Of a DNA stretch of 64,000 nucleotides, positions 7,856 to 42,267 are shown in pieces. The notes beneath the pieces are model-generated. The model saw only the letters and a program-made list of their open reading frames with translations. It made no database searches and had not been told where the DNA came from. The stretch lies in assembly GCA_041662585.1 (NCBI GenBank), contig JBAZSG010000006.1, positions 4,155 to 68,154 on the forward strand, given 5' to 3'. The stretch comes from Patescibacteria group bacterium (lineage in GTDB: Bacteria; Patescibacteriota; Patescibacteriia; UBA1558; GWA2-36-10). The position numbers and the translations under genes were made by a program. Each line of letters begins with the position of its first letter. Position 1 is the first letter of the stretch.

Positions 7856-10800
7856 ATGAGTTTAATAAAAAAACTTTTTGTGTTTTCCTTGGTAATTACC
7901 ACTGTCCTATCATTTAATCCTTTTAATGTTAAGGCAGCCGGTAGTTATGGAGCAGGATCACTTCTTGCTCTACAAGGCGTACAAGGTTCAGCCGTTTATT
8001 ATATTGGTTCAGATGGAATGAAATATGTCTTCCCTGATTCAAAAACATATGCTACTTGGTATGACAATTTTAACGATGTTGTTAGAGTTGACGTAGCTGA
8101 GTTAGACATGTATCCAGACGGCGGAGCTATGACTTATCGTGCTGGTACCAAATTGGTAACTCACGAAAACACAGCCAAAATTTATGCCGTAGGTCCTGGT
8201 GGATTACTTCACTGGATTCCTACAGCAGAAATAGCTGAAGATTTATATGGAGCAAACTGGGCATCTAGAGTACTAGACGTAATTCCAGGATACTTCTCTT
8301 CAAGCTATGTTTCAGGCGCTGATTTATCTGATATGTATCCAAGTGGTACATTATTGCAAATGGGCGAAAACATGTACTATGTAGATGGTACAAGTGTAAG
8401 ACCTTTTGCTGATGCTGATGCCTTTGAAGCAAACAACTTTGCTTATGGTAACTTAATCACAGTTACTAGCGTTTCAGCTTATACATCAGGTACATCAATC
8501 ACTGGTGAAGAGACTGCCCTATCTGGCTTTATGCCAGCTGAAGGCAGTGGTCCAGTTGTCTCAGGTGGCAACTTGACAGTAGCTATTGCTAGTGGCACTC
8601 CAGCCTCTGGAATGGTTGTAGGTGGTGCAGCTCGCGTACCATTTACCAAATTAGCTTTGACTACTGGTAGTCAAGGTGTAACCATTGATACAATGGTTGT
8701 ACAAAGAGGCGGAATTGGTCAAGATGGTGCTTTTGATAGTATCGATATTTTAGATGGTACTACAATGCTTCCATATGATGCCAATTCAAAAACCTTCAAT
8801 TCAAATCACCAAGCTACATTTACCAAAGATTTGGTAATTCCAGCTAATACCACTAAGTATGTTTACTTAGCTGCTAATATGGTTTCTCAGACTACTATTG
8901 GTACTTCTTATGCTGGAGAAGCTCCAGCTCTAGGATTAGCAGCCGTTACTTTAGTTGGAAGTGGTTCAGTAGGCGGTTCATTACCAGTTTATGGTAATAC
9001 TCAAACCTTAAATGGAACCATTGCTATTGGTACCGTTGGAATCCAAAGAGGTTCTTATGGAAATGCCACTTCAACTTCAATTGAAGTTGGTAAAACTGAT
9101 TACACTTTCTTCTCATTTCAAGTAAATCCTTCTTCTGTAGAAGATGTAACTTTCAACCAAGTAGCTGTTTACCAAGAAGGTACAGCAGTATTGGGTGATG
9201 ACATCACCAACATTGAACTGTTAAAAGATGGTGTGAAGGTTGCTGATGGTGTTGTCGATGGTAAGTACGTTACTTTTAGTGGTATTAATACTGTTATTCC
9301 AAAAGGACAAACTTATCAATATGCAGTTAGAGCTGATGTTGACGGCGGTTCACTTAGAACAGTAGACTTGGGTATATATCGCACTACCGATTTATTGGTA
9401 ACTGGTAATACTTATGGTTATAACATCACTCCAAGTTATAGTGGAGCTGGTTCATCATATACTAGTTCTTCAGTTTATAACAAACCAGTATTAAGTGATA
9501 ATCAATTTACCATGTCAAATGGTACTTTGACTGTTGAAAGAGGTAATATAGTTGGTTCTGAAAACATTACCCTTGGTAATGATCAAACATTAGGATCATT
9601 CAAATTCACTGTAAAAGGCGAAGAAATTGATGTTACTGCTTTGACTTTGACAATAGCTTCTTCTGCAACCGCTACTATTGAAGATGCTTTGGCTGGTGTA
9701 AAATTAGTTGATAGCAACGGTACTACCGTAGCTGGTCCAACTGATGTTACCAACAATGCACTTACAGTTGCCTTTACTGACACATTTACTTTACCAGTTG
9801 GTGAAAGTGAATATAAAGTAGTAGGTAATATTGCTAACAATGGTGGTTGGGCAGCTAATGATACTATTTATGCTAGCATCAGTACTCCAGCAACAGCTAT
9901 TACAGCCACTGGTGTTATTACTGGCAATAGTATTACTTCTGGTACAGCCACAGCTATTAATACAAATACCCAGACAGTTAAAGCTGCTTCTTTGACCGTA
10001 ACCAAAGATACCCTACCAACTACAAGCACCGTTATCGCTGGTGCTCAAGATGTAGTATTGGGTTCTTGGACATTTGATACTACAAATTCAGGAGAAGATA
10101 TCAGAATTACATCTTTGGTATTTGCTGCTTCTTCAACAGATGCTACTAACCTAACTGTATATAATGGCGTTTATGGTAGTGGTGGAGTTGCAATGAGCCC
10201 AATTAATTCTGCTCCAACAGTTGCTGATGGTGCTTCTTCAACCTTTGCTTTTGATGAACCAATAGTTATTACCAAGAAGACAAGTAAAACTATCCAATTG
10301 GTAGGTGATATCAATAGTAGTGCTACTACTGGACAAAGTGCTCAATTTGGTTTGACCGATGTAACAGCAGCTACCAACGCTTCAGTTGTAGCTTATGGTG
10401 TAACTACTGGAAATAGAGCTACATTATCTCTTACTGCTGATAATGGTGCTACACTTACTTATTCAGCCGCTGGCGCTGTTACTGTAAGTACATACAACAA
10501 TCCATCAAATGCTATTGCTAGAGCAGGTGCTACTGGCGTTACATTTGGCAGTGTCAAGCTAGATGCTCTATATGAAAATCTAGATTTAGACCAATTGATT
10601 GTTTATGTTGCTGACGGTGCTTTGACTGGTACAGCTACTGGTAATTATGCTGATGTCAACAAAGTATACATTTATGATGGTACTACTTTGTTAGCTTCAA
10701 ATGCTATCCCATCAACTGGTTTGTATACATTCAACTTTGACAATGGTACTTTGACTGTCCCTGTAGACGGTTCAAAGACTTTGACAATCAAAGCTGACTT

Positions 10801-11623
10801 GAGTACTATCAGTCAAGTAAACGATGTACCAGGTACTCCAGCTGCCGACATTGCCTTTGGCTTTGGTGGTACAGATGGATTTAAGTTTACCGGTACTTCT
10901 TCAAATACCACAGCTACAGAGACCTACAATGGTTCTACATCTTCAGCTATGATATTGCATAAAGCATTACCAACTGTTACCGTTGCTCAAAGTAGTGCTG
11001 CTTTAGGTGCTGCTACTACAATGGCTAACGGTGCTTCAGACTTGTATGCTTTCAAAGTCACTGCTGATGCAGCAGGTAGTGAAGTATTACTATACAGAGC
11101 TACATTTGAAATCGCTACTGGTGGTGGCGCAACCGTTACAGTTACCAACTGTTATCTAAAGGATAGTGATGGTAATACTGTAGGTGCTGCTGCTACTCCA
11201 ACTGATGTTGATGGTGCTCCATCTTATGTATCATATGTATTCAACAATCCTGACATCTCAGCTGGTAATACCAAAGAAGCCTTGATGGTTGCTGCTGGTT
11301 CTAGCGAGACTTATAAGTTGAATTGTACTTTAGCTAACGCTGCTTCAGGAGATAATATAGCTGTTGCCTTAGTAGGTGACGTTGCTTCTTCTACTCTAGC
11401 TGCTAGCTTTGGCACCCCATCTGCTACTGGTCAAAACAATGCAGATGCTTGGGCCGCTGTAGACAAAGGAAACTTTGTATGGTCAGATAACTTCAAGAAC
11501 CGTGGCCTAGCCACAGACGGTGCTAATGCTACTGCCTGGGGACAATGGTACAATGGTTACTTGGTATCTGGTCTAGGTACAAGTGGTACTACTACTGCTT
11601 ATACAATTGGTTGGTCAAGCTAA
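7856..11623 (+). CDS. large secreted Thr/Ser/Ala/Gly-rich cell-surface protein (S-layer-like) with signal peptide
   Basis: 1255 aa; signal peptide (MSLIKKLFVFSLVITTVLSFNPFNVKAAG); three N-terminal ~55-aa repeats (YYIGSDGMKYVFPD.. / IYAVGPGGLLHWIP.. / MYYVDGTSVRPFAD..) then long beta-rich T/S/A/G/V/N segments with almost no Cys/His/Met. Codon usage visibly differs from neighbours (GGT/GCT/ACT-rich). Confidence 0.6.
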   Translation: MSLIKKLFVFSLVITTVLSFNPFNVKAAGSYGAGSLLALQGVQGSAVYYIGSDGMKYVFPDSKTYATWYDNFNDVVRVDVAELDMYPDGGAMTYRAGTKLVTHENTAKIYAVGPGGLLHWIPTAEIAEDLYGANWASRVLDVIPGYFSSSYVSGADLSDMYPSGTLLQMGENMYYVDGTSVRPFADADAFEANNFAYGNLITVTSVSAYTSGTSITGEETALSGFMPAEGSGPVVSGGNLTVAIASGTPASGMVVGGAARVPFTKLALTTGSQGVTIDTMVVQRGGIGQDGAFDSIDILDGTTMLPYDANSKTFNSNHQATFTKDLVIPANTTKYVYLAANMVSQTTIGTSYAGEAPALGLAAVTLVGSGSVGGSLPVYGNTQTLNGTIAIGTVGIQRGSYGNATSTSIEVGKTDYTFFSFQVNPSSVEDVTFNQVAVYQEGTAVLGDDITNIELLKDGVKVADGVVDGKYVTFSGINTVIPKGQTYQYAVRADVDGGSLRTVDLGIYRTTDLLVTGNTYGYNITPSYSGAGSSYTSSSVYNKPVLSDNQFTMSNGTLTVERGNIVGSENITLGNDQTLGSFKFTVKGEEIDVTALTLTIASSATATIEDALAGVKLVDSNGTTVAGPTDVTNNALTVAFTDTFTLPVGESEYKVVGNIANNGGWAANDTIYASISTPATAITATGVITGNSITSGTATAINTNTQTVKAASLTVTKDTLPTTSTVIAGAQDVVLGSWTFDTTNSGEDIRITSLVFAASSTDATNLTVYNGVYGSGGVAMSPINSAPTVADGASSTFAFDEPIVITKKTSKTIQLVGDINSSATTGQSAQFGLTDVTAATNASVVAYGVTTGNRATLSLTADNGATLTYSAAGAVTVSTYNNPSNAIARAGATGVTFGSVKLDALYENLDLDQLIVYVADGALTGTATGNYADVNKVYIYDGTTLLASNAIPSTGLYTFNFDNGTLTVPVDGSKTLTIKADLSTISQVNDVPGTPAADIAFGFGGTDGFKFTGTSSNTTATETYNGSTSSAMILHKALPTVTVAQSSAALGAATTMANGASDLYAFKVTADAAGSEVLLYRATFEIATGGGATVTVTNCYLKDSDGNTVGAAATPTDVDGAPSYVSYVFNNPDISAGNTKEALMVAAGSSETYKLNCTLANAASGDNIAVALVGDVASSTLAASFGTPSATGQNNADAWAAVDKGNFVWSDNFKNRGLATDGANATAWGQWYNGYLVSGLGTSGTTTAYTIGWSS

Positions 11624-11670
11624 ATAATTCTTATTTAGTGAGATTAATTAATTCAAAGATATACAGAAAC

Positions 11671-11699
11671 ACACCTCTCCCCATTTTGGGGAGGGGTGT
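11671..11699 (+). terminator. GC-rich hairpin after the S-layer-like gene (ACACCTCTCCCC-ATTTT-GGGGAGGGGTGT)
   Basis: 12-bp stem (one G-U) with 5-nt loop, 48 bp after the stop; no clean T-run on the + strand. Confidence 0.45.
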
Positions 11700-11762
11700 T
11701 GTCAAAAACAAGTAAATATAATAGAATTAGCTAGTAATTTTATAGATTAAATTTTTAATACA

Positions 11763-12449
11763 ATGAAAAAAACATACCAAAATTTGATTATTGGAGGCTT
11801 AATATTGTTGGTTATAGCTTTTATATTTGCTTGGACAGCATATTTTAAACAAAACTCAACAAAAATTATAATCCCTGATATAAGCAAAATTTATACTATA
11901 GAAGATTTTTCAGACTCTAGTTTAGACGAAGAGAGTTTACAAAACCTTATCAAGCGTTTAAATAATGATCAAAAATATTTAAGAGAAGGCACCTATGAAA
12001 GCGAAGTACAACGTTATGATATTTGGGTGGATATTGCCAATTTAAAATTTGCTTTAGAAGATTATGATAGTGCAGTAGAGATATGGGAATACGCTATTAC
12101 TTTAAATAATTCAAATCCATTGGCCTTCGCCAATTTGGCCAATTATTATAAATCATTTGCCAATGATTATGAAAAAGCAGCTTATTATTATGATCAAGCT
12201 ATTCAAAAAGATAACGTTGGTTATTATTTTGATTATGAAGCCTATGCAGAATTATATATAAGGTATTTGCCAGAAGATCCACATAGAGTAGAAATTATTA
12301 TGCTTGATGGTGTAGCTAAAGCAGTTGGGAATACTAAATTAAATTTTTATTTGTTTCTTTATAATTATTGGAATGAAAAAGGAGATTCAAATAAGACAGC
12401 ACAATATAAAGATGAAATTTTAAAAATAGACGCTAATTATCAATTTTAA
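11763..12449 (+). CDS. membrane-anchored TPR-repeat protein
   Basis: 228 aa; N-terminal TM (LIIGGLILLVIAFIFAWTAYF); TPR-like repeats (WEYAITLNNSNPLAFANLANYY.., AAYYYDQAIQKD..); first gene of a three-gene operon. Confidence 0.5.
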   Translation: MKKTYQNLIIGGLILLVIAFIFAWTAYFKQNSTKIIIPDISKIYTIEDFSDSSLDEESLQNLIKRLNNDQKYLREGTYESEVQRYDIWVDIANLKFALEDYDSAVEIWEYAITLNNSNPLAFANLANYYKSFANDYEKAAYYYDQAIQKDNVGYYFDYEAYAELYIRYLPEDPHRVEIIMLDGVAKAVGNTKLNFYLFLYNYWNEKGDSNKTAQYKDEILKIDANYQF

Positions 12450-12451
12450 TT

Positions 12452-14737
12452 ATGGAAGTGTTAAAAAAAGTTTTGAATAAAGCAATTTGGTTGTTGATTA
12501 TAGGCGCTTTAGTGGTTCCACTTTATGTTGATAGTGATTTTTTCTTTCCTTATATTTTTAGCAAGACATTAGCCTTTAGAATAATAATAGAAATATTATT
12601 ATTGCTATGGTTAATTTATATATTTATAAAGAAAAATAAAATTAATATTGATTGGTTGACAATCACATTTTTTGTGATGTTGGTTTTTATGTATGTTTCG
12701 TCCATTTTTGGGCACAATTTTTCTTTGAGCTTTTGGAGTACAATAGAAAGAGGAGAGGGATTGTTGCTTTGGACGCATTTATTTTTTTATTTTTTTATAT
12801 TACACAATTTTATTCAAGAAAAAAAACAATGGTTGTTGTTGTTTGATGTATTCTTTATTATTGCGCAAGTAGTAGCTGTGGTTGGACTATTGCAGTATGC
12901 TGGAGTAGACTTTATCAATCACTCAGGAGTAGCTGAAGAGCGCATAGCTTCGACTATAGGCAATGCAGCGTATCTAGCTGGTTATTTATTGTTTGCTTTT
13001 TTTATTGGTTTATATTTGATGTTTAAACGTCAAAATATTTGGTTGAGCTTGTATTATTCTATAGCGATTTTGATAGATATTTTTATCGTAATTCAGACTG
13101 GCACTAGGGGAGCATTTTTGGCCTTTATTATTAGTATTTTATTATTTGTTGTATATAATATTTTTAAACTGGCCAATAAAAAAATTAAGTATTATGTATT
13201 ATTTTTAGGTATTTTATTTATTATTTTTTTGGCATTAGTTTTTACTAATAAAGATAGTAGTTTTATACAAAACAACTTACCTTTACGTAGAATAGTTAGC
13301 ATTTCTTTAGAAGAACGTACAGCTCAGACTCGTTTTATGGCCTGGGAGTCTGCTTGGCAAGGATTTAAAGACAGGTCTATTTTGGGACACGGGCAAGAGC
13401 ATTACGCAGTGGTTTTTAATAAATATTTTAATCCAGAAATATATTCTCATGTTGGTTCCAGAATTTGGTTTGATAGAGCACACAATATTTTCTTGGATCA
13501 TTTGGTGACAGGTGGATTAATAGGCTTTATTCTGTATAGTATTTTAATTATTGGACCTATCTGGCTTGTTTTAAAAAAGATATTTGTCAAAAAATCTCAT
13601 GACAATCAGGAAAACGATAATATTTGGGAAAATTTTGCTACACAAATGTTATTTTTGGCAATATTTTCTTTTATATTCCAAGGGCTTTTAGTTTTTGAAG
13701 CACTAGTCACTTATTTGCCTTTATTTTTGATAATCGCTTTTGTGATAAAAGAATATACTGAACCAAAGTTTATAATAGAAAACAGCAAAAAAGTTTTAAT
13801 ATCTTTGATGATATATGCTATTGCTTTTATACCCATAATGTATATTGTGAATATCAAAGAAGCCAAGGCAAATTTGGAGGTGATTGATGCCCTACAATTG
13901 CAATCCATAGATTATAATCAATCAATTGTGGGTTATGAAAAAGTATTGAATTATAATAGTTCTGGTACCAATGAATATCTTCGTCGAATGACAGAATATG
14001 TAGATGGTTTGATAATAAATAGAAATGTCAGTCCTTATGAAGCTACCCAATTTGTAGATATAGTAGATAAAGCATTAGAAAAAAGACTTCAGGAGTTTCC
14101 AGAAGATGTAGCCACTTATTTGTTATTTATGAGACACTACAACTACACTTATGTACTTGATCCAGATAGATTGTACAAAGTTGAAGAATTGGGCAAAAAA
14201 GCTTTGGAATATAGTCCAACTAGACCACAGATATATTATGAATTGGGTTATGCCGATTTGTATTTATATCAGAGAATGATAGAAGATGCTAATACTGATG
14301 AAGCTAAAAAATATCAGGTAGGAACAGTGGACAATTTTCAAAAAGCTATCGATTTAAATAATGATGTGATGGAGTCTTATATCAATATGATTATGGTATT
14401 ATTGACTAGTGATCAGTCAGATAAAGTGCAATCTTATATAGATATTATGGAGAATATGGGCATAGATTATAAAAAAGAGTCATCATTATCTAGAATGGCA
14501 AACTCAGCTTTACATGCTGAAGACTATAAATGGGCTGCTTATTTTAGTGAGTTATTGATAAAAGTAGTGCCAGAAAATCCTGACTATTATATAAATACTG
14601 CCTTAGCTCTAGCATATTTAGGCGATTATGATAGAGCTATTGAAATAGCTGAAGAGATAAAGAATTTTGGTGGGCAATATATTATTCAATCAGAAGAATT
14701 TATTAAAGATATAAAATCAGGAAAATTAACTAAATAA
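12452..14737 (+). CDS. Wzy_C (O-antigen ligase/polymerase-like) polytopic membrane domain fused to a C-terminal TPR domain; candidate O-oligosaccharyltransferase
   Basis: 761 aa; ~450-aa multi-TM N-terminal part with the Wzy_C-like motif 'IQTGTRGAFLAFIISILLF' and a large extracytoplasmic loop containing conserved His; ~300-aa soluble C-terminal TPR region. Confidence 0.6.
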   Translation: MEVLKKVLNKAIWLLIIGALVVPLYVDSDFFFPYIFSKTLAFRIIIEILLLLWLIYIFIKKNKINIDWLTITFFVMLVFMYVSSIFGHNFSLSFWSTIERGEGLLLWTHLFFYFFILHNFIQEKKQWLLLFDVFFIIAQVVAVVGLLQYAGVDFINHSGVAEERIASTIGNAAYLAGYLLFAFFIGLYLMFKRQNIWLSLYYSIAILIDIFIVIQTGTRGAFLAFIISILLFVVYNIFKLANKKIKYYVLFLGILFIIFLALVFTNKDSSFIQNNLPLRRIVSISLEERTAQTRFMAWESAWQGFKDRSILGHGQEHYAVVFNKYFNPEIYSHVGSRIWFDRAHNIFLDHLVTGGLIGFILYSILIIGPIWLVLKKIFVKKSHDNQENDNIWENFATQMLFLAIFSFIFQGLLVFEALVTYLPLFLIIAFVIKEYTEPKFIIENSKKVLISLMIYAIAFIPIMYIVNIKEAKANLEVIDALQLQSIDYNQSIVGYEKVLNYNSSGTNEYLRRMTEYVDGLIINRNVSPYEATQFVDIVDKALEKRLQEFPEDVATYLLFMRHYNYTYVLDPDRLYKVEELGKKALEYSPTRPQIYYELGYADLYLYQRMIEDANTDEAKKYQVGTVDNFQKAIDLNNDVMESYINMIMVLLTSDQSDKVQSYIDIMENMGIDYKKESSLSRMANSALHAEDYKWAAYFSELLIKVVPENPDYYINTALALAYLGDYDRAIEIAEEIKNFGGQYIIQSEEFIKDIKSGKLTK

Positions 14738-17176: not shown

Positions 17177-17190
17177 AAGACAATAAAAAT

Positions 17191-17228
17191 AACCTCGCAG
17201 GTTTTTAAACCTGCGAGGTTATTTTTTA
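17191..17228. terminator. bidirectional rho-independent terminator (AACCTCGCAGGTTT-TT-AAACCTGCGAGGTT plus T-runs on both strands)
   Basis: 14-bp perfect stem between convergent genes 14738..17176(+) and 17237..17689(-); T/A runs on both sides. Confidence 0.75.
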
Positions 17229-17236
17229 ATCTTAAG

Positions 17237-17689: not shown

Positions 17690-17763
17690 AGTATTAATAT
17701 TAATTATTTAGGTCACTATATTATATAATAGTCATTTTAAAGTGTCAATTTTAGCTTATTTTG

Positions 17764-18966: not shown

Positions 18967-19054
18967 TTCTTTAATTGATTTATTTAATAAATACTGGTAT
19001 AATTTTATAGTATTTACAAAGCTAAAGCAAGCTTTTTATTAGAAAATAGCCAAA

Positions 19055-21324: not shown

Positions 21325-21326
21325 GT

Positions 21327-24829: not shown

Positions 24830-24830
24830 T

Positions 24831-25520: not shown

Positions 25521-25523
25521 TTT

Positions 25524-26615: not shown

Positions 26616-26616
26616 T

Positions 26617-27645: not shown

Positions 27646-27647
27646 AT

Positions 27648-28493: not shown

Positions 28494-28497
28494 ATAT

Positions 28498-29142: not shown

Positions 29143-29146
29143 TAAT

Positions 29147-32074: not shown

Positions 32075-32077
32075 ATA

Positions 32078-33088: not shown

Positions 33089-33100
33089 GTTTATTAATTT

Positions 33101-33192
33101 TAATCCCCCTAAATCCCCCTTTGACAAGGGGGACTTGTCAAACTCTATTAATTAATTCTCCCCTGTCAAGGGGAGATGGCTGAAGGACAGAG
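33101..33192. repeat. cluster of GC-rich palindromes (CCCCC-TTTGACAA-GGGGG; TTGACAAG-GGGGA-CTTGTCAA; TCTCCCC-TGTCAA-GGGGAGA)
   Basis: Read directly; conspicuous C/G runs in an AT-rich intergenic spacer between two same-strand genes. Confidence 0.6.
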
Positions 33193-33198
33193 GGGTTA

Positions 33199-34560
33199 TT
33201 ATCGCCCCAAACTCTTATTAAACACAGTATTGATAGTTTTTAAGATTATAGAAATATCTAGAGCTACAGATTGATTTTTGATATAAAACAAATCATATTG
33301 TAGTTTTTCTTTAGCATCAGCTACGCTAGCACCATATGGAAAATTTATTTGAGCCCAACCAGTAAGTCCTGGTTTGACTAGATGTCTTTCATTATAAAAT
33401 GGTATAGCCTCTTTGAGGGTGCTTACAAATTCTGGTCTTTCAGGGCGAGGACCAACAAAACTCATATTACCTTTGATGATATTTATAAATTGAGGTATTT
33501 CATCTATCCTAGTTTTACGGATAAATTTGCCAACTTTTGTAACTCGTGAGTCATTTTCTTTGGCCCACTGAGCACCATTGGTTTCGGCATTTTTGGTCAT
33601 AGAGCGCAATTTGTAAACAGTAAATATTTTGTTGTGCAGGCCAACTCTTTCTTGTTTATAGATAATAGAACCAGCTGATTCAAGCTTTATGGCCAAGATT
33701 ATAAAAGGAAGTATCAACAGAGAAATAAGACCAAAAAATACAGAAAGCACTATATCCATAATTCTTTTGAAAAAAGATGACCAATGTTGATTTTTTTGAC
33801 TAATATTTTCCAAAAACCAGTGACGCTCCAAGGAAGAGACGGGTACCTTGCCAGTAATTTTTTCATAAAAGTCAGTAAGATTAAAATATTGTATTTTAAG
33901 ATCTATGTTTTCAAATAAATAGCGAGCTACCTCTGGACTATATTTTGGGTCATTGACAGCTACTACAGTATTGATTTTGAGCTCTAGTATTTTATTTCTC
34001 ATTTCGCTGATATCTTTACTGACAGCGACTATTTGAAATTTTTCAGGGATAACAGATGAATCGGGGTTGATAATTAGTTTTAGTTTATAACCCAAGTGAG
34101 GCTTGGTAATTATTTCTTCAGCTAGTAGTAGTGATTCAGAATGGATGCCAATAATAGCTAGATTACTGCCTAGTCTATCGCTAGATATGAGTTTGTAAAA
34201 TATTTTTCGCCAAAGGATAAACAAAATAGCAAAAATACCAACCAGTATCAGCAGTATGGTTTGTGGCCTGATGCCAAGAATATTGCCAACTAAATAAAAG
34301 AAAGACATGGCCAAGACAGTATTGATGAGCAAATTTTGCACCAAGCTACCATAAAATTTAAAGCCTTGTTGGACTTTGTTTATTTCGTATAAACCATTGA
34401 TAAAAAATATTATTATCCACAAGGCAAAAATAATTGAAAAAGGGCCCAAATGCTTGGACCATAGTAGGCTATCAATATAAGAAAAACGTAACCACAAGGT
34501 GATGGCTAAAGAACTATATAGTAATATCAGGTCTCCAAATAATAATATTATCTTTCTCAT
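33199..34560 (-). CDS. polyprenyl glycosylphosphotransferase (bacterial sugar transferase, WbaP/PssY-like initiating enzyme)
   Basis: 453 aa; N-terminal TM segments; 'KRIMDIVLSVFFGLISLLILPFI', 'YKLRSM', 'DEIPQFINIIKGNMSFVGPRP'. Confidence 0.8.
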   Translation of the reverse strand: MRKIILLFGDLILLYSSLAITLWLRFSYIDSLLWSKHLGPFSIIFALWIIIFFINGLYEINKVQQGFKFYGSLVQNLLINTVLAMSFFYLVGNILGIRPQTILLILVGIFAILFILWRKIFYKLISSDRLGSNLAIIGIHSESLLLAEEIITKPHLGYKLKLIINPDSSVIPEKFQIVAVSKDISEMRNKILELKINTVVAVNDPKYSPEVARYLFENIDLKIQYFNLTDFYEKITGKVPVSSLERHWFLENISQKNQHWSSFFKRIMDIVLSVFFGLISLLILPFIILAIKLESAGSIIYKQERVGLHNKIFTVYKLRSMTKNAETNGAQWAKENDSRVTKVGKFIRKTRIDEIPQFINIIKGNMSFVGPRPERPEFVSTLKEAIPFYNERHLVKPGLTGWAQINFPYGASVADAKEKLQYDLFYIKNQSVALDISIILKTINTVFNKSLGR

Positions 34561-34850: not shown

Positions 34851-35798
34851 ATGAAAATATCAATTGTTTTACCAATTTATAATGAAGAAGAAAATGTAAA
34901 TATTCTTTATAATAAATTGACAGAAGTTTTAAAAAGAATTGGAGTAGAGTATGAGATACTTTGTGTTAATGATGGATCAAAAGATAAAAGTTTTGATATT
35001 TTAAAGAACATTGCAGAGCACGACAAAAAAGTTAAGGTAATCAATTTTAAAAATAATTTTGGCCAAACTGCCGCTATGTCAGCTGGCATCAAAGCTTCTC
35101 AAGGAGATTTAATAATACCAATGGATGCTGATTTGCAAAATGATCCAGAAGATATACCAAGATTTTTAGAAAAGATTAATGAAGGTTTTGATGTGGTATC
35201 AGGTTGGCGTAAAGATAGGAAAGATGCTTTGGTTTTAAGAAAAATACCTTCTTGGGTTGCAAATTGGATTATCGGAAAGATTACAGGTGTTAAAATTCAT
35301 GATTATGGGTGTTCAATGAAAGCTTATAAAAGAGAAATTATAAAAGATGTAAATCTATATGGAGAAATGCATCGTTTTATTCCAGCTTATGCTTCTTGGC
35401 AAGGAGCTGTAGTGACAGAGATGGTAGTTACACATCATCCACGTATTCACGGTGTGACTAAATATGGAATTGGCAGAACTTTTAAAGTAATTTTGGATTT
35501 AATAGTGGTAAAGTTTTTATCAGTCTATATCAATAGACCAATCCATTTTTTTGGGGGTATTGGTTTTGTATCATTATTTTTAGGAATTATCACTGGCTTG
35601 ACAGCTTTAACGCTTAGAATTTTAGAGATAAAATATATTGTAGAAACTCCCTTACCTATTCTTTCAGCTTTATTAATAATAGTCGGAGTTCAACTCATAG
35701 CTATGGGTATATTAGCAGAAATGATTATGAGAACTTATTATGAGTCACAACATAAAGAACCTTATGTTATAAAAGATAAAATTAATTTTGATAACTAA
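34851..35798 (+). CDS. glycosyltransferase family 2, polyprenyl-phosphate glycosyltransferase (GtrB/ArnC/DPM1-like)
   Basis: 315 aa; 'KISIVLPIYNEEENV', 'CVNDGSKD', 'DADLQNDPEDI', two C-terminal TM helices. Confidence 0.8.
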   Translation: MKISIVLPIYNEEENVNILYNKLTEVLKRIGVEYEILCVNDGSKDKSFDILKNIAEHDKKVKVINFKNNFGQTAAMSAGIKASQGDLIIPMDADLQNDPEDIPRFLEKINEGFDVVSGWRKDRKDALVLRKIPSWVANWIIGKITGVKIHDYGCSMKAYKREIIKDVNLYGEMHRFIPAYASWQGAVVTEMVVTHHPRIHGVTKYGIGRTFKVILDLIVVKFLSVYINRPIHFFGGIGFVSLFLGIITGLTALTLRILEIKYIVETPLPILSALLIIVGVQLIAMGILAEMIMRTYYESQHKEPYVIKDKINFDN

Positions 35799-37663
35799 TG
35801 TGTGGAATTACTGGTTATCTTGGTAAAGGTAATCAAGATATATTAGAGAAAATGACAAATAGTCTTTATCACAGAGGTCCTGATGATAAAGGTTTTTTAT
35901 TGGAAGAAAATTTGGGTATGGGACATCGTCGTTTATCAATTATTGATTTGAGTGATTCAGGACGGCAGCCAATGACTAACGAAGATGGATCAATTATAAT
36001 AGTTTTAAATGGTGAGATCTATAATTATCAAGAATTAAAAGAACAATTAAAAAATCAACATAAATTTAAGAGTCAAACTGATACGGAAGTTATTATTCAT
36101 CTTTATGAAGAGATTGGCACAGAAGTTTTTTCTAAATTAAATGGAATGTTTGCGATTGCTTTGTATGACAAGAAAAGAAAAAAAATAATATTATCTAGAG
36201 ATAGATTTGGTAAAAAACCACTATATTGGGGAATTTTTAATGAAACATTTTTGTTCTCTTCAGAGTTAAAGTCATTTTTAAATCATCCGTCTTTTAAAAA
36301 AGAATTAAATATAGAGGCTCTTAATAAATATTTACAATATGAGTATGTGCCGACACCGCATGCGATTTTTAAAGGAGTATATAAATTAGAGCCAGGATAT
36401 TACTTAGAATATGATTCTAAAAATATAAAAAAGGAAAAATTTTGGGATATTCATTTTGAAAAATCTGACCTTACTTTTAATGAGTCTTTAGAAAAGTTAG
36501 ATTATGAAATGAATAGAGCAACAAAAATTAGAATGATGAGTGATGTGCCTTTGGGGGTATTTTTAAGTGGAGGTATAGATAGTAGTATTATTGCTTATTA
36601 CGCACAAAAAAATAGTCAGCAAAAAATAAAAACTTTTTCTATTGGTTTTAAAGAAAAAAGTTTTGATGAATCAAATTATGCTCGTCAGGTAGCTAGATAT
36701 TTAGGCACCGAACATCATGAACAAATTTTAAGTGCCAAAGATTCTCTAGATTTTATTCCAAAAATTGCAGATTTGTTGGATGAACCAATGTCTGATTCAT
36801 CTATTGTACCAACTTATTTATTATCTAAATTTACCAAAGAACATGTTACAGTTGCTTTGGGTGGAGATGGTGGGGATGAATTATTGTTGGGTTATGATAC
36901 TTTCGTAGCCCAGCGCTATGCAGATATATATGACAAGGTACCGTTTTTTATTCGTCAATTGATAACTAAGACAGTTACAAGTTTGCCAACATCTTTTTCT
37001 AATATGTCTTTAGATTTTAAAATAAAAAAATTTACCAAAGATTTTGAAGATAATAAAAATTACAGACATCAACGTTGGTTAGGTTCTTTTGACAAACAGA
37101 GTCGTAGTAATTTATTTACAAATAATATTTGGCAAGATTTGAAAAATAAAAATGAATTTAACGATGTTGATAACTATTTAGATAGTATATCCAAATTAGA
37201 TAAATATCAGAAATTAATTTATTTATATTTAAGAACTTACATGTTAGACGATATTTTAGTAAAAGTAGATAGAGCTAGCATGTTTAATGCACTGGAAGTT
37301 AGGGCGCCGTTTTTGGACTATCAAGTAGCAGATTTAATTAATTCTATGCCAATTAATTTTAAATTAAAAGGAACTAAAACAAAATATATACTTAAAAAAT
37401 TAATGGATGGCAAGCTGCCTCAAAATATTATTTATCGTAAAAAGAAAGGTTTTGGTATGCCAATAGCTGATTGGTTGAATAATGATTTAAAATCATTAGC
37501 ACAAGAACTATTAAATTCTGAAAGAATAAAAAGAGAGGGCTTATTTGATTATAAATATGTAGAGAGGTTATTAGAAGGACATTTTGATCACAAACAAGAT
37601 AATCGTAAATTAATTTGGACTCTTATGGTATTTGAAATGTGGCGTGAAAAATGGTTTAATTAA
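35798..37663 (+). CDS. second asparagine synthase (glutamine-hydrolysing)-family amidotransferase
   Basis: 621 aa; 'MCGITGY', 'DLSDSGRQPM', PP-loop 'VFLSGGIDSSII'. Confidence 0.8.
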   Translation: MCGITGYLGKGNQDILEKMTNSLYHRGPDDKGFLLEENLGMGHRRLSIIDLSDSGRQPMTNEDGSIIIVLNGEIYNYQELKEQLKNQHKFKSQTDTEVIIHLYEEIGTEVFSKLNGMFAIALYDKKRKKIILSRDRFGKKPLYWGIFNETFLFSSELKSFLNHPSFKKELNIEALNKYLQYEYVPTPHAIFKGVYKLEPGYYLEYDSKNIKKEKFWDIHFEKSDLTFNESLEKLDYEMNRATKIRMMSDVPLGVFLSGGIDSSIIAYYAQKNSQQKIKTFSIGFKEKSFDESNYARQVARYLGTEHHEQILSAKDSLDFIPKIADLLDEPMSDSSIVPTYLLSKFTKEHVTVALGGDGGDELLLGYDTFVAQRYADIYDKVPFFIRQLITKTVTSLPTSFSNMSLDFKIKKFTKDFEDNKNYRHQRWLGSFDKQSRSNLFTNNIWQDLKNKNEFNDVDNYLDSISKLDKYQKLIYLYLRTYMLDDILVKVDRASMFNALEVRAPFLDYQVADLINSMPINFKLKGTKTKYILKKLMDGKLPQNIIYRKKKGFGMPIADWLNNDLKSLAQELLNSERIKREGLFDYKYVERLLEGHFDHKQDNRKLIWTLMVFEMWREKWFN

Positions 37664-37678
37664 GTATATTATAGATAT

Positions 37679-38251
37679 ATGGAAGAAAAAAAATTGAATT
37701 TGGGAGCTGGTGAAGATAGTAAAGATGGTTATATAAGTATAGATTGGAATGAATTGACTAAACCAGATGTAGTACATGATTTGAATAAATTGCCTTATCC
37801 TTTTGAGGATAATTATTTTGATGAAATATTAGCTTCTCATATATTAGAGCATTTAGATAAACCATTTGAGGTTATGAAAGAGTTGCACAGAATATTAAAG
37901 CCAAGTGGTAAATTGATAATTAAAGTGCCACATTTTAGTAGAGGTTTCACTCATACAGAACATGCTCATGGCTTTGATATATCTTTTCCTATGTATTTTA
38001 ATAAAGATTTTACTAAGTCAGGTTTTTATGGTGTAGAGTTTAAACTTAAAAAACTTAAATTACATTGGGCTGCTTTTACTCATTTGTTACCTTATTATGG
38101 GTATGGAAAAATAGCTATAAGGTTTATAAAATTATTAAGTTTTATGTTGTCTAGTTTGGCAAATATTAGCCCTAATTTGTGTAGTCGCATATGGTGTTTT
38201 TGGGTAGGGGGATTTGAAGAAATAGAATTTGAATTTATTTGTAAGAAATAA
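37679..38251 (+). CDS. class I SAM-dependent methyltransferase (Methyltransf_11-like)
   Basis: 190 aa; 'LNLGAGEDSKDGYISID', 'FDEILASHILEHL'. Confidence 0.55.
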   Translation: MEEKKLNLGAGEDSKDGYISIDWNELTKPDVVHDLNKLPYPFEDNYFDEILASHILEHLDKPFEVMKELHRILKPSGKLIIKVPHFSRGFTHTEHAHGFDISFPMYFNKDFTKSGFYGVEFKLKKLKLHWAAFTHLLPYYGYGKIAIRFIKLLSFMLSSLANISPNLCSRIWCFWVGGFEEIEFEFICKK

Positions 38252-39017
38252 TATGTCATCAAGTGAACGTTTTGGTTATGAATGGGATAAATATTCGGGT
38301 ATCGATTCTAACTATGAAAAACAATTTAAAAATTGGATATATCCTCTTGAATCAGAGTTTTTTAAAGACAAAGTGATTTTAGATGCGGGCTGTGGTATGG
38401 GTAGAAATAGTTTTTGGCCACTCCAATGGGGAGCAAGAGAAGTTGTAGCCTTTGATTTTGATAGACGTTCGGTTGAATCAGCTAAGAGAAATTTAGAACA
38501 TTTTAATAATGTAGAAGTTTTTTATAAAAGTATTTATGATATTACTTGGGTGGATAAATTTGATATAGCTTTTAGTATTGGTGTGATACATCATTTGAAA
38601 GATCCAAAACAAGCTTTGCAAAATATGATTAAAGCTTTAAAATCAGATGGCACGCTTTTGATTTGGGTTTATAGTTATGAAGGTAATGAATGGATAGTAA
38701 AATTAGTTGATCCCATTAGAAAAAATATTACTTCAAAATTACCAGTTGGCTTAGTGCATTTTTTAAGTTATTTATGTTCTATACCTTTATATATTTTTAT
38801 AAAAATGTTTAAAAATACAAATGGTTATTTAAAACAAATTTCTAATTTTAAATTTTGGCATGTACATAGTATAGTTTTTGATCAATTGATACCGGACATA
38901 GCTAATTATTGGAAAAAGACCGAAGTAGAAGAATTATTTTTAAATTTAGGTTTAAAATCAGTGGATATTCATCAACCGCCAAATAAATCTGGTTGGATAA
39001 TTATTGGAAAAAAATAA
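38229..39017 (+). CDS. class I SAM-dependent methyltransferase
   Basis: 262 aa; 'VILDAGCGMGRNSF' motif I, 'FDIAFSIGVIHHL'. Confidence 0.65.
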   Translation: MNLFVRNNMSSSERFGYEWDKYSGIDSNYEKQFKNWIYPLESEFFKDKVILDAGCGMGRNSFWPLQWGAREVVAFDFDRRSVESAKRNLEHFNNVEVFYKSIYDITWVDKFDIAFSIGVIHHLKDPKQALQNMIKALKSDGTLLIWVYSYEGNEWIVKLVDPIRKNITSKLPVGLVHFLSYLCSIPLYIFIKMFKNTNGYLKQISNFKFWHVHSIVFDQLIPDIANYWKKTEVEELFLNLGLKSVDIHQPPNKSGWIIIGKK

Positions 39018-40301: not shown

Positions 40302-40303
40302 AT

Positions 40304-42263: not shown

Positions 42264-42267
42264 AAAT

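What the first reader, a model, noticed from the sequence alone, without database searches (positions are those of the whole stretch)
7856..39017. Candidate protein O-glycosylation system: S-layer-like acceptor, Wzy_C-TPR transferases and a 22-kb glycan factory
Three adjacent blocks read as one functional unit.

Block 1 is a 1255-aa secreted protein. It is highly expressed-looking, with codon usage that departs from its neighbours. It is T/S/A/G-rich and essentially Cys-free: an S-layer-like acceptor full of Ser/Thr.

Block 2 is an operon of one TPR protein and two paralogous fusions of a Wzy_C (O-antigen-ligase-family) polytopic domain to a C-terminal TPR domain. Wzy_C is the catalytic fold of the known protein O-oligosaccharyltransferases PglL, PilO/TfpO and the S-layer OTase WsaB. 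TPR arrays are the substrate-recognition modules of O-GlcNAc transferase and TMTC O-mannosyltransferases. No LPS core/lipid A genes are evident, so a WaaL role is unlikely in a monoderm-like organism.

Block 3 is a complete Und-P-linked oligosaccharide assembly line:
- a priming polyprenyl glycosylphosphotransferase, 5 GT1 and 1 GT2;
- a Wzx-like flippase;
- a UDP-sugar 6-dehydrogenase and an epimerase;
- 2 AsnB-like amidotransferases and an O-acetyltransferase;
- a kinase-fold protein and, unusually, six SAM methyltransferases.

A type IV pilin, another classic O-glycosylation acceptor, is encoded 13 kb further on. Taken together this looks like a dedicated surface-protein glycosylation system, and the Wzy_C-TPR fusion may be an undescribed OTase architecture.
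Basis: partly seen in the sequence, partly recalled or inferred. Interest (0 to 1): 0.85.

Follow-up and report, generated by a model that had tools for sequence, protein, structure and literature searches.

The report
Surface-protein glycosylation locus in Patescibacteria
An uncultivated ultra-small bacterium encodes its big wall-anchored surface protein next to two ligase-type membrane enzymes and a 21-kb sugar-assembly island, an arrangement that closely mirrors the known S-layer glycosylation loci of Gram-positive bacteria, so it is a credible but not architecturally new protein-glycosylation system.

Summary
The window comes from a Patescibacteria (CPR) genome. It encodes a 1255-aa secreted surface protein (SLP), a membrane-anchored TPR protein, two Wzy_C–TPR fusions (WzyA, WzyB) and a 21-kb glycan island, followed by a chemosensory and type IV pilus cluster.

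- An SLP-family gene is directly followed by a Wzy_C gene in 9 loci found from the enzyme side, plus one where only the TPR gene was detected.
- The same is true for 6 of 6 distant SLP homologues looked up from the SLP side, in unrelated flanks.
- The link persists where the SLP wall-anchor module is replaced by a PG_binding_1 domain.
- Both fusions keep residues aligning with Arg191, Arg265 and His313 of WaaL; the His also aligns with His349 of a solved oligosaccharyltransferase.
- The WzyB model (pLDDT 96) has 15 helices assigned as transmembrane, and the catalytic face and the TPR domain lie outside the cell.

The Wzy_C+TPR architecture is not undescribed: WsfB and PglL carry TPR motifs, and WsaA is a TPR protein encoded upstream of WsaB. 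Glycosylation itself is not shown, and a cell-wall-polymer ligase remains a serious rival.

Side finding: a covarying structured RNA leader precedes SLP genes.

Verdict: new member of a known kind; interest about 0.5.

The parts
5395..5976 (+). ECF-type sigma factor, conserved upstream partner of the SLP gene
   Evidence: Sigma70_r2/r4 hits; BldN/SigM-type ECF. Found upstream of SLP in L001, L008, L009, L012, L059, L063, L081, L084, L085.
5992..7428 (+). DUF5667 protein, possibly an anti-sigma partner (the role is my guess from its position next to the ECF sigma gene)
   Evidence: PF18915, E=4.5e-10. It travels with the ECF sigma gene directly upstream of SLP in most of those loci.
7455..7855 (+). 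Structured, conserved RNA leader of the SLP gene; the core motif is at 7504-7599
   Evidence: MFE -133 kcal/mol against -93±5.5 for shuffles, z=-7.2. 89.5 % of cells paired and 22 compensatory pairs, against 38-49 % and 4-12 for slid controls. The CM finds it only upstream of SLP genes in 1.46 Mb. Eight further metagenome copies: in 5 an SLP reading frame follows within 240-320 nt, in 3 the stored locus ends first; where the DUF5667 gene is also held (6 of 8) the motif lies downstream of it. No Rfam family.
7856..11623 (+). SLP: secreted 1255-aa surface protein. N-terminal wall-anchor module (about 28-228), then about eight beta-sandwich domains. Proposed glycan acceptor.
   Evidence: No Pfam hit. 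Family of 177 full-length relatives; those with an organism name are Patescibacteria lineages or unclassified 'bacterium' MAGs. AF2 model pLDDT 88; fold matches are to Ig-like arrays. The N-terminal module is swapped for PG_binding_1 in distant homologues.
11670..11699 (+). Stable hairpin between SLP and the TPR gene. It has no U-tract on the + strand, so it may be an attenuator or a 3'-end stabiliser.
   Evidence: Sequence read; flagged. Function untested.
11763..12449 (+). TPR228: 228-aa protein with an N-terminal TM anchor and TPR repeats predicted to face outward. WsaA-like partner.
   Evidence: Weak TPR hits, each below its Pfam cut-off; TM segment at 8-26. An equivalent ORF lies between or beside SLP and Wzy_C in L001, L004, L005, L008, L009, L010, L012, L059, L063, L081, L082, L083, L085. 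It is also found in L006 and L069, where the contig is too short upstream to show SLP, and is not detected in loci whose upstream sequence shows no SLP.
12452..14737 (+). WzyA: Wzy_C ligase-type membrane domain fused to a C-terminal TPR domain; residues R219, R294, H344
   Evidence: PF04932, E=5.9e-19; motifs located. Falls in an SLP-linked clade in the NJ tree, except L047, whose 1.2 kb of upstream sequence is too short to show an SLP gene.
14738..17176 (+). WzyB: second Wzy_C-TPR fusion with 15 helices assigned as transmembrane; residues R292, R368, H418; TPR domain 553-812 outside the cell
17185..17226 (.). Bidirectional terminator-like 19-bp hairpin that closes the TPR-WzyA-WzyB unit
17764..29617 (.). 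Glycan-building block. Five GT4-type glycosyltransferases: 17764-18966 (-), 19055-20167, 20167-21324, 21327-22364, 25524-26615. Four methyltransferases: 22357-23004, 24831-25520, 26617-27645, 28498-29142. AsnB-like amidotransferase 22982-24829. Weak APH-like protein 27648-28493. Hexapeptide acetyltransferase 29147-29617.
   Evidence: The centre of the block has the lowest GC in the window (0.255-0.261).
29614..34560 (-). Wzx-type flippase (29614-30870), TviB-like UDP-HexNAc 6-dehydrogenase (30860-32074), epimerase (32078-33127), priming polyprenyl glycosylphosphotransferase (33199-34560)
   Evidence: A PGT lies within 10 kb of a Wzy_C-TPR gene in 40 of 80 related loci, typically divergent and immediately upstream.
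34851..39017 (+). ArnC/PgfS-like polyprenyl-phosphate sugar synthase (34851-35798), second AsnB-like amidotransferase (35798-37663), two methyltransferases (37679-38251, partial domain; 38229-39017)
39159..52331 (+). MCP-CheW-CheA-response regulator, then PilB-PilC, three large pilin-like proteins, PilM and a 169-aa pilin. These pilins are alternative or additional candidate acceptors.
   Evidence: In L023, L028, L051, L056, L057 and L071 a Wzy_C-TPR gene sits directly upstream of this same cluster; in L021 the same order is seen from CheA on, with no MCP/CheW hit.

Best explanation
**Proposed function.** This is a surface-protein O-glycosylation locus of the S-layer-glycan (WsaB/WsfB, PglL) type in a Patescibacteria genome.

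**Proposed pathway:**
1. The Bac_transf enzyme primes undecaprenyl phosphate on the cytoplasmic face.
2. Five GT4 enzymes extend the glycan. It probably contains N-acetyl-hexosaminuronic acid, from the TviB-like dehydrogenase plus the epimerase.
3. The two AsnB-like enzymes amidate the uronic acid. The acetyltransferase and up to six methyltransferases decorate the glycan.
4. Wzx flips the lipid-linked glycan to the outer face.
5. WzyA and/or WzyB transfer it en bloc from Und-PP to hydroxyl side chains of the exported, wall-anchored multi-Ig-domain protein SLP. They would use the WaaL/PglL-type Arg-Arg-His site on the outer face of the membrane.
6. The outward-facing TPR domains, and the separate membrane-anchored TPR protein, would hold or present the protein substrate.

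**Shown here:**
- The domain content of the locus.
- Conservation of residues aligned with the catalytic positions.
- The WaaL-like fold.
- The outward orientation of the catalytic face and the TPR domain.
- The tight, context-independent SLP-(TPR)-Wzy_C gene linkage.

**Inferred, not shown:**
- The acceptor.
- The sugar chemistry.
- The role of the TPR modules.
- That SLP forms an S-layer.
For: 1. **Gene linkage from the enzyme side.** SLP-(TM-TPR)-Wzy_C order occurs in L001, L004, L005, L008, L009, L012, L059 and L063. L010 shows SLP and the TPR gene only. L074 has a partial SLP-like hit 7.4 kb upstream of its Wzy_C gene.
2. **Gene linkage from the acceptor side.** All 6 distant SLP homologues looked up (30-44 % identity) have a Wzy_C gene immediately downstream. 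Four of them have an intervening 200-290-aa TPR protein. Upstream flanks are as different as FtsK/RecA (L082) and a histidine kinase (L083).
3. **Linkage follows the SLP body, not its anchor.** P0236, whose N-terminal module is replaced by PG_binding_1, keeps TPR plus two Wzy_C genes. P0234 shares only the N-terminal module and has no Wzy_C neighbour.
4. **Catalytic competence.** R292, R368 and H418 are invariant in 97 family members. They align with R191, R265 and H313 of WaaL 7tpg, and H418 also aligns with H349 of the solved 'oligosaccharyltransferase' 9rmk. 9rmk is the best PDB sequence match (E=4.3e-10), ahead of WaaL (2e-9). WzyA has R219, R294 and H344.
6. **Topology.** 15 helices assigned as TM. 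K+R make up 14 of 46 residues in the inner loops and 4 of 69 in the outer loops. All 21 invariant residues lie on the outer face. The TPR domain is outside and net acidic.
7. **Experimentally studied precedent with the same parts list.** S-layer gene, TPR protein or TPR fusion, Wzy_C OTase, Bac_transf initiator, Asn-synthase homologue and a methyltransferase (PMC2943079).
8. **No partners for the other pathways in the window.** There is no Wzz/PCP co-polymerase and no LCP ligase.
Against: - No glycan on SLP has been observed; everything rests on sequence and context.
- SLP's fold matches are generic Ig-like arrays, not known S-layer proteins. Lattice formation is untested.
- Genes for S-layer anchoring polymers also sit next to S-layer genes in Firmicutes. 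Wzy/WaaL-clan proteins (WpaA/WpaB) are needed there for wall-polymer synthesis and S-layer assembly (PMC6030368). Adjacency alone therefore does not separate 'glycosylates SLP' from 'builds what SLP binds'.
- The anchor-swap argument rests on one locus each way.
- Most family members in Patescibacteria are not next to SLP. They sit next to a priming transferase, a secreted subtilase or the pilus cluster, so the family as a whole is not SLP-specific.
- The accessory domains of PglL-type enzymes (PglL_A, Wzy_C_2) were not detected at E<=0.01.
Confidence: 0.5

Rival explanations
1. Cell-wall glycopolymer ligase or polymerase. The island makes a secondary cell-wall polymer or a teichoic-like polymer. 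WzyA/WzyB polymerise it or ligate it to a wall or lipid acceptor, as proposed for WpaA/WpaB of Bacillus anthracis or TacL of pneumococci. SLP is encoded alongside because it binds that polymer through its N-terminal module.
For: - WpaA/WpaB belong to the same Pfam clan as Wzy and WaaL, and their depletion affects S-layer assembly (PMC6030368).
- SLP has a swappable N-terminal anchor module, interchangeable with PG_binding_1, so a wall ligand must exist.
- A WecA/TagO-like second priming enzyme (1061-2146) is syntenic with the locus (L084 and L085).
- No LCP ligase is present in the window, leaving the ligation step open.
- Half of the related loci pair the enzyme only with a priming transferase and have no SLP.
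Against: - The Wzy_C linkage persists when the SLP anchor module is replaced by a peptidoglycan-binding domain (L082). It is absent from a protein that shares only the anchor module.
- The best PDB sequence match is a protein oligosaccharyltransferase.
- An outward TPR domain plus a separate TPR partner is the arrangement described for the S-layer O-OTases WsfB and WsaA/WsaB. I am not aware of TPR domains in TacL or WpaA/B (from memory; not tested here).
Confidence: 0.25
2. Wzy-type repeat-unit polymerase(s) of a capsule or exopolysaccharide made by a Wzx/Wzy pathway. The position next to SLP would simply reflect a large 'envelope' gene neighbourhood inherited vertically in small, syntenic genomes.
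For: - The island has a Wzx and a priming transferase but no other candidate polymerase.
- PF04932 also covers polymerases (from my own knowledge of the family).
- WzyA gives a weak N-terminal hit to TIGR04370, 'oligosaccharide repeat unit polymerase' (E=0.0014, 17.7 bits against a cut-off of 40).
- Two anciently diverged paralogues could mean one polymerase and one ligase.
Against: - No Wzz/PCP or tyrosine-kinase co-polymerase is present in the window.
- Both paralogues keep all three residues that align with the WaaL/O-OTase site, including the His.
- SLP-Wzy_C adjacency survives complete turnover of the flanking genes, which vertical synteny alone does not explain.
- Several SLP loci have only one Wzy_C gene.
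Confidence: 0.1
3. Pilin O-oligosaccharyltransferase (TfpO/PilO-like). The enzymes would glycosylate the type IV pilins encoded downstream rather than, or as well as, SLP.
For: - In L023, L028, L051, L056, L057 and L071 a Wzy_C-TPR gene lies immediately upstream of the MCP-CheW-CheA-RR-PilB-PilC-pilin cluster. L021 shows the same order from CheA on. L044 and L079 have it next to PilB/PilC.
- In the window the same cluster follows the island.
Against: - In the NJ tree the pilus-linked enzymes form clades separate from both WzyA-type and WzyB-type enzymes, which are SLP-linked.
- In the window 22 kb separate WzyB from the first pilus gene.
- The TM-TPR partner is detected only beside Wzy_C genes of the SLP-type arrangement.
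- This reading is not exclusive of the main explanation, because PglL-type enzymes serve many acceptors.
Confidence: 0.07

Closest known systems
S-layer protein O-glycosylation (slg) clusters of Geobacillus stearothermophilus NRS 2004/3a (sgsE, wsaA, wsaB, wsaP...) and Paenibacillus alvei CCM 2051T (spaA, wsfA, wsfB, wsfP...)
   Same: - The surface-protein structural gene lies beside the glycan cluster.
- The OTase carries a Wzy_C domain.
- TPR is either fused to the OTase (WsfB) or encoded as a small protein just upstream (WsaA, 168 aa).
- A Bac_transf-type initiating enzyme is present.
- There is an asparagine-synthase homologue (WsfA) and a methyltransferase activity (in WsaE).
All of this is from PMC2943079.
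   Different: - The phylum is Patescibacteria, not Bacillota.
- The SLP family gave no Pfam or NCBIfam hit (so no SLH-domain hit) and uses a different, swappable anchor module.
- Both a TM-anchored TPR protein and TPR fusions are present together.
- There are two anciently diverged OTase paralogues.
- Export is by Wzx here.
- There are six methyltransferases and two amidotransferases.
- No experimental proof exists here, and direct sequence comparison with WsaB/WsfB was not possible.
PglL / PilO(TfpO) / PglS protein O-oligosaccharyltransferases of Gram-negative bacteria
   Same: - Wzy_C domain.
- The His of the conserved H-N motif aligns with H349 of the solved oligosaccharyltransferase 9rmk. 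Its length (610 aa) and the H349 numbering suggest PglL (my inference).
- The mechanism is presumed to be en-bloc transfer from Und-PP-glycan.
- The enzyme gene lies beside the acceptor gene, as with pilA-tfpO (from my own knowledge; not tested here).
   Different: - No PglL_A or Wzy_C_2 accessory domains were detected.
- The TPR domain is about 260 aa.
- There are 15 helices assigned as transmembrane.
- The host has a monoderm-type envelope.
- The acceptor would be a multi-Ig-domain wall protein.
WaaL O-antigen ligase (Cupriavidus metallidurans, PDB 7TPG/7TPJ)
   Same: - R191, R265 and H313 align with R292, R368 and H418.
   Different: - WaaL's acceptor is lipid A-core. No LPS genes are in the window, and CPR cells are generally described as lacking an outer membrane (from my own knowledge).
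- WaaL has 12 TM helices (from memory) and no TPR domain.
WpaA/WpaB (Bacillus anthracis SCWP) and TacL (pneumococcal lipoteichoic acid ligase)
   Same: - Wzy/WaaL-clan membrane proteins of monoderm bacteria that act on Und-PP-linked wall polymers.
- WpaA/B depletion disturbs S-layer assembly (PMC6030368).
   Different: - WpaA/B are assigned to Pfam PF13425 rather than PF04932.
- I am not aware of TPR modules in them or in TacL (from memory).
- Here the linkage follows the SLP body rather than its anchor.

Membership tests
Wzy_C / O-antigen-ligase superfamily (PF04932, clan CL0499) | Significant match to the Wzy_C profile above the gathering score | tested here: met
   WzyA 68.8 bits and WzyB 73.4 bits, against a cut-off of 31.7.
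Wzy_C / O-antigen-ligase superfamily (PF04932, clan CL0499) | WaaL-like polytopic fold with a large extracytoplasmic loop that carries the conserved residues | tested here: met
   [not shown]
Ligase-type members (WaaL / protein O-OTases) | Two Arg and one His that align with the WaaL active-site residues R191, R265, H313 and with PglL H349. Their roles in pyrophosphate binding and catalysis are as summarised in PMC12800693 and from memory. | tested here: met
   Invariant R292, R368, H418 in 97 sequences. Alignment to 7tpg and 9rmk. WzyA has R219, R294, H344.
PglL-type O-OTases | Accessory PglL_A (PF15864) or Wzy_C_2 (PF11846) domain | tested here: not met
   Neither was reported at E<=0.01 for WzyA or WzyB. 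One homologue, P0107, carries PF11846.
Protein O-OTases in general | Demonstrated transfer of a lipid-linked glycan to Ser/Thr/Tyr of a protein | not testable with these tools
   Needs glycoproteomics or heterologous reconstitution.
S-layer glycosylation (slg) systems, WsaB/WsfB type | OTase with Wzy_C, plus TPR either fused or encoded by the gene directly upstream | tested here: met
   Both forms are present: TPR228 upstream and TPR fused to WzyA/WzyB. Precedent in PMC2943079.
S-layer glycosylation (slg) systems, WsaB/WsfB type | Structural surface-protein gene linked to the OTase and glycan genes | tested here: met
   Adjacent in the window. The SLP-Wzy_C order recurs in eight of the 80 related loci (plus L010, SLP + TPR gene only) and in 6 of 6 SLP-side look-ups.
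S-layer glycosylation (slg) systems, WsaB/WsfB type | The acceptor is a lattice-forming S-layer protein | not testable with these tools
   SLP is secreted, wall-anchored, 1255 aa and Ig-domain-rich. Self-assembly cannot be assessed with these tools.
S-layer glycosylation (slg) systems, WsaB/WsfB type | Sequence relatedness to WsaB/WsfB beyond the shared domain | not tested
Wzx/Wzy-dependent polymerases | Partner co-polymerase (Wzz/PCP or CpsC/D) in the cluster | tested here: not met
   No such domain was found in any of the ORFs of at least 100 aa scanned against Pfam, which excludes the few embedded antisense ORFs.
WaaL (LPS O-antigen ligase) | Lipid A-core acceptor, i.e. LPS biosynthesis genes in the organism | tested here: inconclusive
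   None in the 64-kb window. The rest of the genome was not examined.

The most novel reading that the evidence does not exclude
The SLP-(TM-TPR)-Wzy_C-TPR triad would be a lineage-wide module that makes the glycosylated outer coat of many Patescibacteria. Paralogous Wzy_C-TPR clades would be specialised for different acceptors: SLP for the WzyA and WzyB types, type IV pilins for the pilus-linked clade. The outward TPR arrays would read folded Ig-like domains rather than short sequons. Coat production would be controlled by a dedicated ECF sigma factor and a previously undescribed structured RNA leader. That would give the first molecular handle on the cell surface that these episymbionts use to meet their hosts.
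Probability: 0.2. Interest if true: 0.7.

Novelty: new member of a known kind. Interest (0 to 1): 0.5.

Why it matters
Patescibacteria (CPR) are a huge, almost entirely uncultivated branch of bacteria that live attached to other cells. Their surface layer and pili are thought to mediate that attachment, yet no surface glycoprotein system has been described for them in the literature I could search.

This locus nominates three things:
- A widespread family of about 1200-aa wall-anchored surface proteins.
- The enzymes most likely to modify that protein or to anchor it.
- A variable glycan island rich in methylation and amidation.

It also gives concrete residues to mutate and constructs to test in glyco-engineered E. 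coli.

It does not reveal a new enzyme architecture. The value lies in extending a Gram-positive paradigm to CPR, and in the accompanying regulatory RNA leader.

Tried and rejected
- **Sequence searches of full-length WzyA/WzyB and of the full-length profile against PDB** returned only TPR proteins. A profile of the membrane domain alone was needed to reach 9rmk and WaaL.
- **The Foldseek PDB search of the SLP model** gave only generic Ig-like arrays (PrgB, integrins, alpha-2-macroglobulin). It neither supports nor refutes an S-layer.
- **Literature searches for Wzy_C-TPR or S-layer glycosylation in CPR** found nothing specific. The WaaL structure paper (PMC9884178) is not held, so the roles of R191, R265 and H313 rest on PMC12800693 and on memory. 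The C. difficile SLCT-11 S-layer glycan paper contains none of the four searched terms (oligosaccharyltransferase, O-antigen ligase, Wzy, TPR).
- **'Distinct codon usage implies high expression'** was rejected as stated. GC3 is the same as in the neighbours, and the GC excess is compositional.
- **WaaL function** was considered and set aside, because no LPS genes are present and the envelope is monoderm-type.
- **The RNA-leader model** found no copies beyond its seven training sites in 1.46 Mb. It is therefore absent or too divergent at L004, L005, L008, L012, L063, L082 and L083.
- **Not used:** the 1.84-billion-protein representative search, the third homologue search and the afdb50 fold search.

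Full report
**Where the window comes from.** The window has about 30 % GC. The best relatives of its proteins are from Candidatus Komeilibacteria and other Patescibacteria/Parcubacteria MAGs. The exact SLP sequence is recorded as a hypothetical protein of a 'Patescibacteria group bacterium' MAG, on a contig of up to 702 kb.

**Checking the observation.** ORF listing and Pfam/NCBIfam scans confirm every block.

*Block 1 (7856-11623):*
- It encodes a 1255-aa protein with no family hit.
- It has a signal-peptide-like N-terminus (read by eye, no predictor run) and a T/A/G/S-rich, nearly Cys-free composition.

*Block 2, three back-to-back genes closed by a 19-bp bidirectional terminator-like hairpin:*
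- A 228-aa protein with one N-terminal TM segment and weak TPR hits.
- WzyA: 761 aa, Wzy_C E=5.9e-19, plus TPR.
- WzyB: 812 aa, Wzy_C E=2.2e-20, plus TPR.
- The two fusions are 29 % identical. WzyB has an insertion of about 73 residues, which adds two membrane helices.

*Block 3 holds:*
- Five GT4-type transferases.
- Six methyltransferase-domain proteins, one of which matches only part of the profile.
- Two AsnB-like amidotransferases.
- A hexapeptide acetyltransferase.
- A Wzx-type flippase.
- A Bac_transf priming enzyme (above the TIGR03025 cut-off).
- A nucleotide-sugar dehydrogenase and an epimerase.

- The dehydrogenase is TviB-like, the UDP-GlcNAc 6-dehydrogenase type. With the epimerase and the AsnB-like enzymes this suggests amidated N-acetyl-hexosaminuronic acids (inference).
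- The 'GT2' is an ArnC/PgfS/GtrB-like polyprenyl-phosphate sugar synthase.
- The kinase-fold call is weak.
- SLP's raised GC is compositional: GC3 is 0.213, the same as its neighbours.

**The enzymes.** A 97-sequence alignment of WzyB relatives has 21 invariant positions, among them R292, R368, W413, D415 and H418.

- A profile of the membrane domain alone matches two PDB sequences. The first is 9rmk, deposited as 'Oligosaccharyltransferase' (610 aa, E=4.3e-10). The second is the WaaL O-antigen ligase 7tpg (E=2e-9).
- In the printed alignments R292, R368 and H418 fall on WaaL R191, R265 and H313. H418 also falls on H349 of 9rmk. From memory, H349 is the essential histidine of Neisseria PglL. 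PMC12800693 describes the same Arg/His arrangement as the presumed active site of WaaL and PglS.
- WzyA has the equivalent R219, R294 and H344.
- The AlphaFold model of WzyB is very confident (pLDDT 96, pTM 0.93).
- I assigned 15 of the model's helices as transmembrane by combining them with hydropathy. Short loops predicted to be inside then hold 14 K/R in 46 residues, against 4 in 69 for the outside loops. All 21 invariant residues lie on the outer face. The 260-residue TPR domain is outside and net acidic.
- WzyA lacks two helices, so it keeps the same parity.
- TPR228 has an N-in signal anchor, which also places its TPR part outside (inference).

These are therefore ligase-type enzymes with an intact outward active site and outward protein-binding repeats.

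**The surface protein.** SLP belongs to a family of 177 detected relatives of strikingly constant length, mostly 1150-1320 aa. All are unannotated; those that carry an organism name are Patescibacteria lineages or unclassified 'bacterium' MAGs.

- Its model (pLDDT 88) is an N-terminal alpha/beta domain, a flexible linker and about eight beta-sandwich domains.
- Fold matches are to generic Ig-like arrays of adhesins and integrins, not to known S-layer proteins.
- In more distant relatives the body (residues about 249-1250) is retained, while the N-terminal module is replaced by a PG_binding_1 domain.
- Conversely, the module occurs on an unrelated 705-aa protein.
- So residues 28-228 behave as a swappable wall-anchor module.
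- 'S-layer-like' is a reasonable but unproven label.

**Context is the strongest new evidence.** I took 80 loci from species-representative genomes. Their record titles name Patescibacteria/CPR lineages, unclassified 'bacterium' MAGs or, for about two dozen, other taxa (uncultured Gammaproteobacteria, Lysobacteraceae) that I take to be submitter mislabels. At least 587 relatives were confirmed in all. I searched their ORFs with the window's proteins. Three recurrent contexts emerge.

1. **ECF sigma - DUF5667 - SLP - TM-TPR - one or two Wzy_C-TPR - GT4 genes.** SLP directly followed by a Wzy_C gene is seen in eight loci, six of them with the ECF sigma gene upstream. L010 shows SLP and the TPR gene only. 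L074 has only a partial SLP-like hit 7.4 kb upstream. In L001 and L008 the TPR ORF was found by inspection.
2. **A priming transferase next to the Wzy_C-TPR gene,** within 10 kb in 40 of 80 loci and typically divergent and immediately upstream. It is often followed by a secreted subtilase with FG-GAP repeats.
3. **The Wzy_C-TPR gene immediately upstream of the MCP-CheW-CheA-RR-PilB-PilC-pilin cluster** in six loci, with a seventh (L021) showing the same order from CheA on.

Starting instead from six distant SLP homologues (30-44 % identity), all six have a Wzy_C gene directly downstream. Four have the small TPR protein in between. This holds even where the upstream genes are FtsK/RecA or a two-component system and no glycan island follows.

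- The PG_binding_1 variant of SLP keeps the linkage.
- The protein that shares only the anchor module lacks it.
- In a rough NJ tree the WzyA-type and WzyB-type enzymes form separate old clades whose members are SLP-linked, apart from one short contig that cannot be judged. The transferase- or pilus-linked enzymes fall elsewhere.

The coupling is therefore between the Wzy_C-TPR enzyme (plus TM-TPR partner) and the body of SLP.

**Comparison with what is known.** The S-layer glycome review (PMC2943079) describes the same parts list in Bacillota.

- The O-OTases WsaB and WsfB carry Wzy_C.
- WsfB (and PglL) have a C-terminal TPR motif.
- WsaA is a 168-aa TPR protein encoded just upstream of wsaB.
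- The S-layer gene is in or next to the cluster.
- wsfA is an asparagine-synthase homologue.
- WsaE carries a methyltransferase activity.
- WsaP/WsfP are Bac_transf-type initiators.

The claimed 'undescribed architecture' is therefore already in the literature. What is new is its occurrence, conservation and paralogue structure in Patescibacteria, together with an unrelated surface-protein family.

**Most likely mechanism and its rivals.**

*Best explanation (about 0.5).* A Und-PP-linked, heavily decorated glycan is built by the island and flipped by Wzx. WzyA and/or WzyB transfer it to SLP outside the membrane, and the TPR modules present the protein.

*Main rival (about 0.25).* A wall-polymer ligase or polymerase, by analogy with WpaA/WpaB, which belong to the same clan and affect S-layer assembly (PMC6030368), and with TacL (from memory). 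In its favour are the swappable anchor module, a syntenic WecA/TagO-like enzyme and the absence of an LCP ligase in the window. Against it are the anchor-swap observations and the TPR arrangement.

*Lesser rivals.*
- A plain Wzy polymerase. There is no co-polymerase, and the ligase-type His is kept.
- A pilin OTase. The pilus-linked enzymes form a different clade, and this reading is not exclusive of the main one.

**Side finding: a structured RNA leader.** The 427-nt spacer upstream of SLP is highly structured. Its MFE is -133 kcal/mol against -93±5.5 for shuffles, z=-7.2.

- An alignment with six other SLP loci gives a consensus with 67 pairs, of which 89.5 % of cells are paired. The slid controls give 38-49 %.
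- 22 pairs show compensatory changes, against 4-12 in the slid controls, and 0 of 500 shuffles reach this.
- The core (window 7504-7599) is a 26-bp helix followed by an invariant ATCCCTA...AATCGCGCGCGA segment.
- A covariance model finds it only at those seven sites in 1.46 Mb.
- A pattern scan of metagenomes finds eight more copies, on the strand of the SLP gene. An SLP reading frame follows in the five loci that extend far enough. The DUF5667 gene lies upstream in the six where it is held.
- No Rfam family matches.
- It looks like a cis-acting leader of the surface-protein mRNA. Whether it is a stabiliser or a switch is unknown.

**Verdict.** The functional unit and the ligase/OTase reading are strengthened, but glycosylation of SLP is unproven and the architectural novelty claim fails. 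This is a new member of a known kind of system, found in an important uncultivated phylum. Interest is about 0.5.

Noticed in passing
window 7455-7855 (core 7504-7599); also L001 3046-3141, L009 2679-2827, L059 5074-5162, L081 7649-7748, L084 5671-5769, L085 5689-5777, and L087-L094: A conserved, strongly structured RNA leader sits upstream of SLP genes (z=-7.2; 22 covarying pairs). Its core is a 26-bp helix plus an invariant ATCCCTA...AATCGCGCGCGA segment. It has no Rfam match and occurs nowhere else in 1.46 Mb of related loci. The TCCCTA segment could pair either with the upstream GGGTA arm or with the downstream TAGGGA, which hints at alternative structures.
   Followed up: yes
window 5395-7428; L001, L008, L009, L012, L059, L081, L084, L085: An ECF sigma factor and a DUF5667 protein are conserved immediately upstream of the SLP gene. 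This suggests dedicated transcriptional control of the surface protein.
   Followed up: partly
window 7937-8540 (SLP residues 28-228); P0221, P0229, P0236, P0234: The N-terminal module of SLP is a mobile unit. It is replaced by PG_binding_1 in distant SLP homologues, and it is reused on an unrelated 705-aa MopE-like protein. It is probably an undescribed CPR cell-wall-binding domain.
   Followed up: partly
window 34851-35798; L004 7482-9200; L059 12336-15788: The window's 'GT2' is an ArnC/PgfS-type polyprenyl-phosphate sugar synthase, yet the window holds no GT-C partner. In L004 and L059, PMT_2 (GT-C) genes lie between or beside the SLP and Wzy_C genes. This hints at a second, monosaccharide-type decoration route for the same surface protein or glycan.
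   Followed up: partly
L021, L023, L028, L051, L056, L057, L071 (also L044, L079); window 39159-52331: In many Patescibacteria a Wzy_C-TPR gene, usually with a divergent priming transferase, lies directly upstream of an MCP-CheW-CheA-response regulator-PilB-PilC-pilin cluster. That is a chemosensory module wired to type IV pili with a ligase gene at its head.
   Followed up: partly
L007 12464-14713, L014 12394-14679, and the same position in L011, L015, L016, L018-L020, L024, L062, L066, L075, L080: A secreted protein of about 750 aa directly follows the transferase-linked Wzy_C-TPR gene in 13 loci. In the two copies scanned against Pfam (L007, L014) it is a subtilase (Peptidase_S8) with FG-GAP repeats. 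Its meaning is unknown.
   Followed up: no
window 1061-2146: A WecA/TagO-like polyprenyl-phosphate GlcNAc-1-P transferase is present (closer to WecA than to MraY). It is syntenic with the SLP locus in L059, L084 and L085. It would be a second priming enzyme, which may point to a separate wall polymer.
   Followed up: partly
window 45774-49067: Three unusually large pilin-like proteins (313-421 aa) carry prepilin N-terminal methylation motifs. One also has a FISUMP (Fibrobacter major) domain and another a Laminin_G_3 lectin-like domain. They may be adhesive minor or tip pilins.
   Followed up: no
window 24000-30000: The centre of the glycan island has the lowest GC in the window (0.255-0.261, against 0.29-0.39 in the rest of the window). 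Its gene content differs between related loci, as expected for a variable and possibly exchanged glycan cassette.
   Followed up: no
window 37679-38251: MT5 (190 aa) matches only positions 37-95 of the 95-position Methyltransf_11 profile, so the N-terminal SAM-binding part may be missing. It also overlaps MT6 by 23 nt. It may be a degenerate methyltransferase.
   Followed up: no
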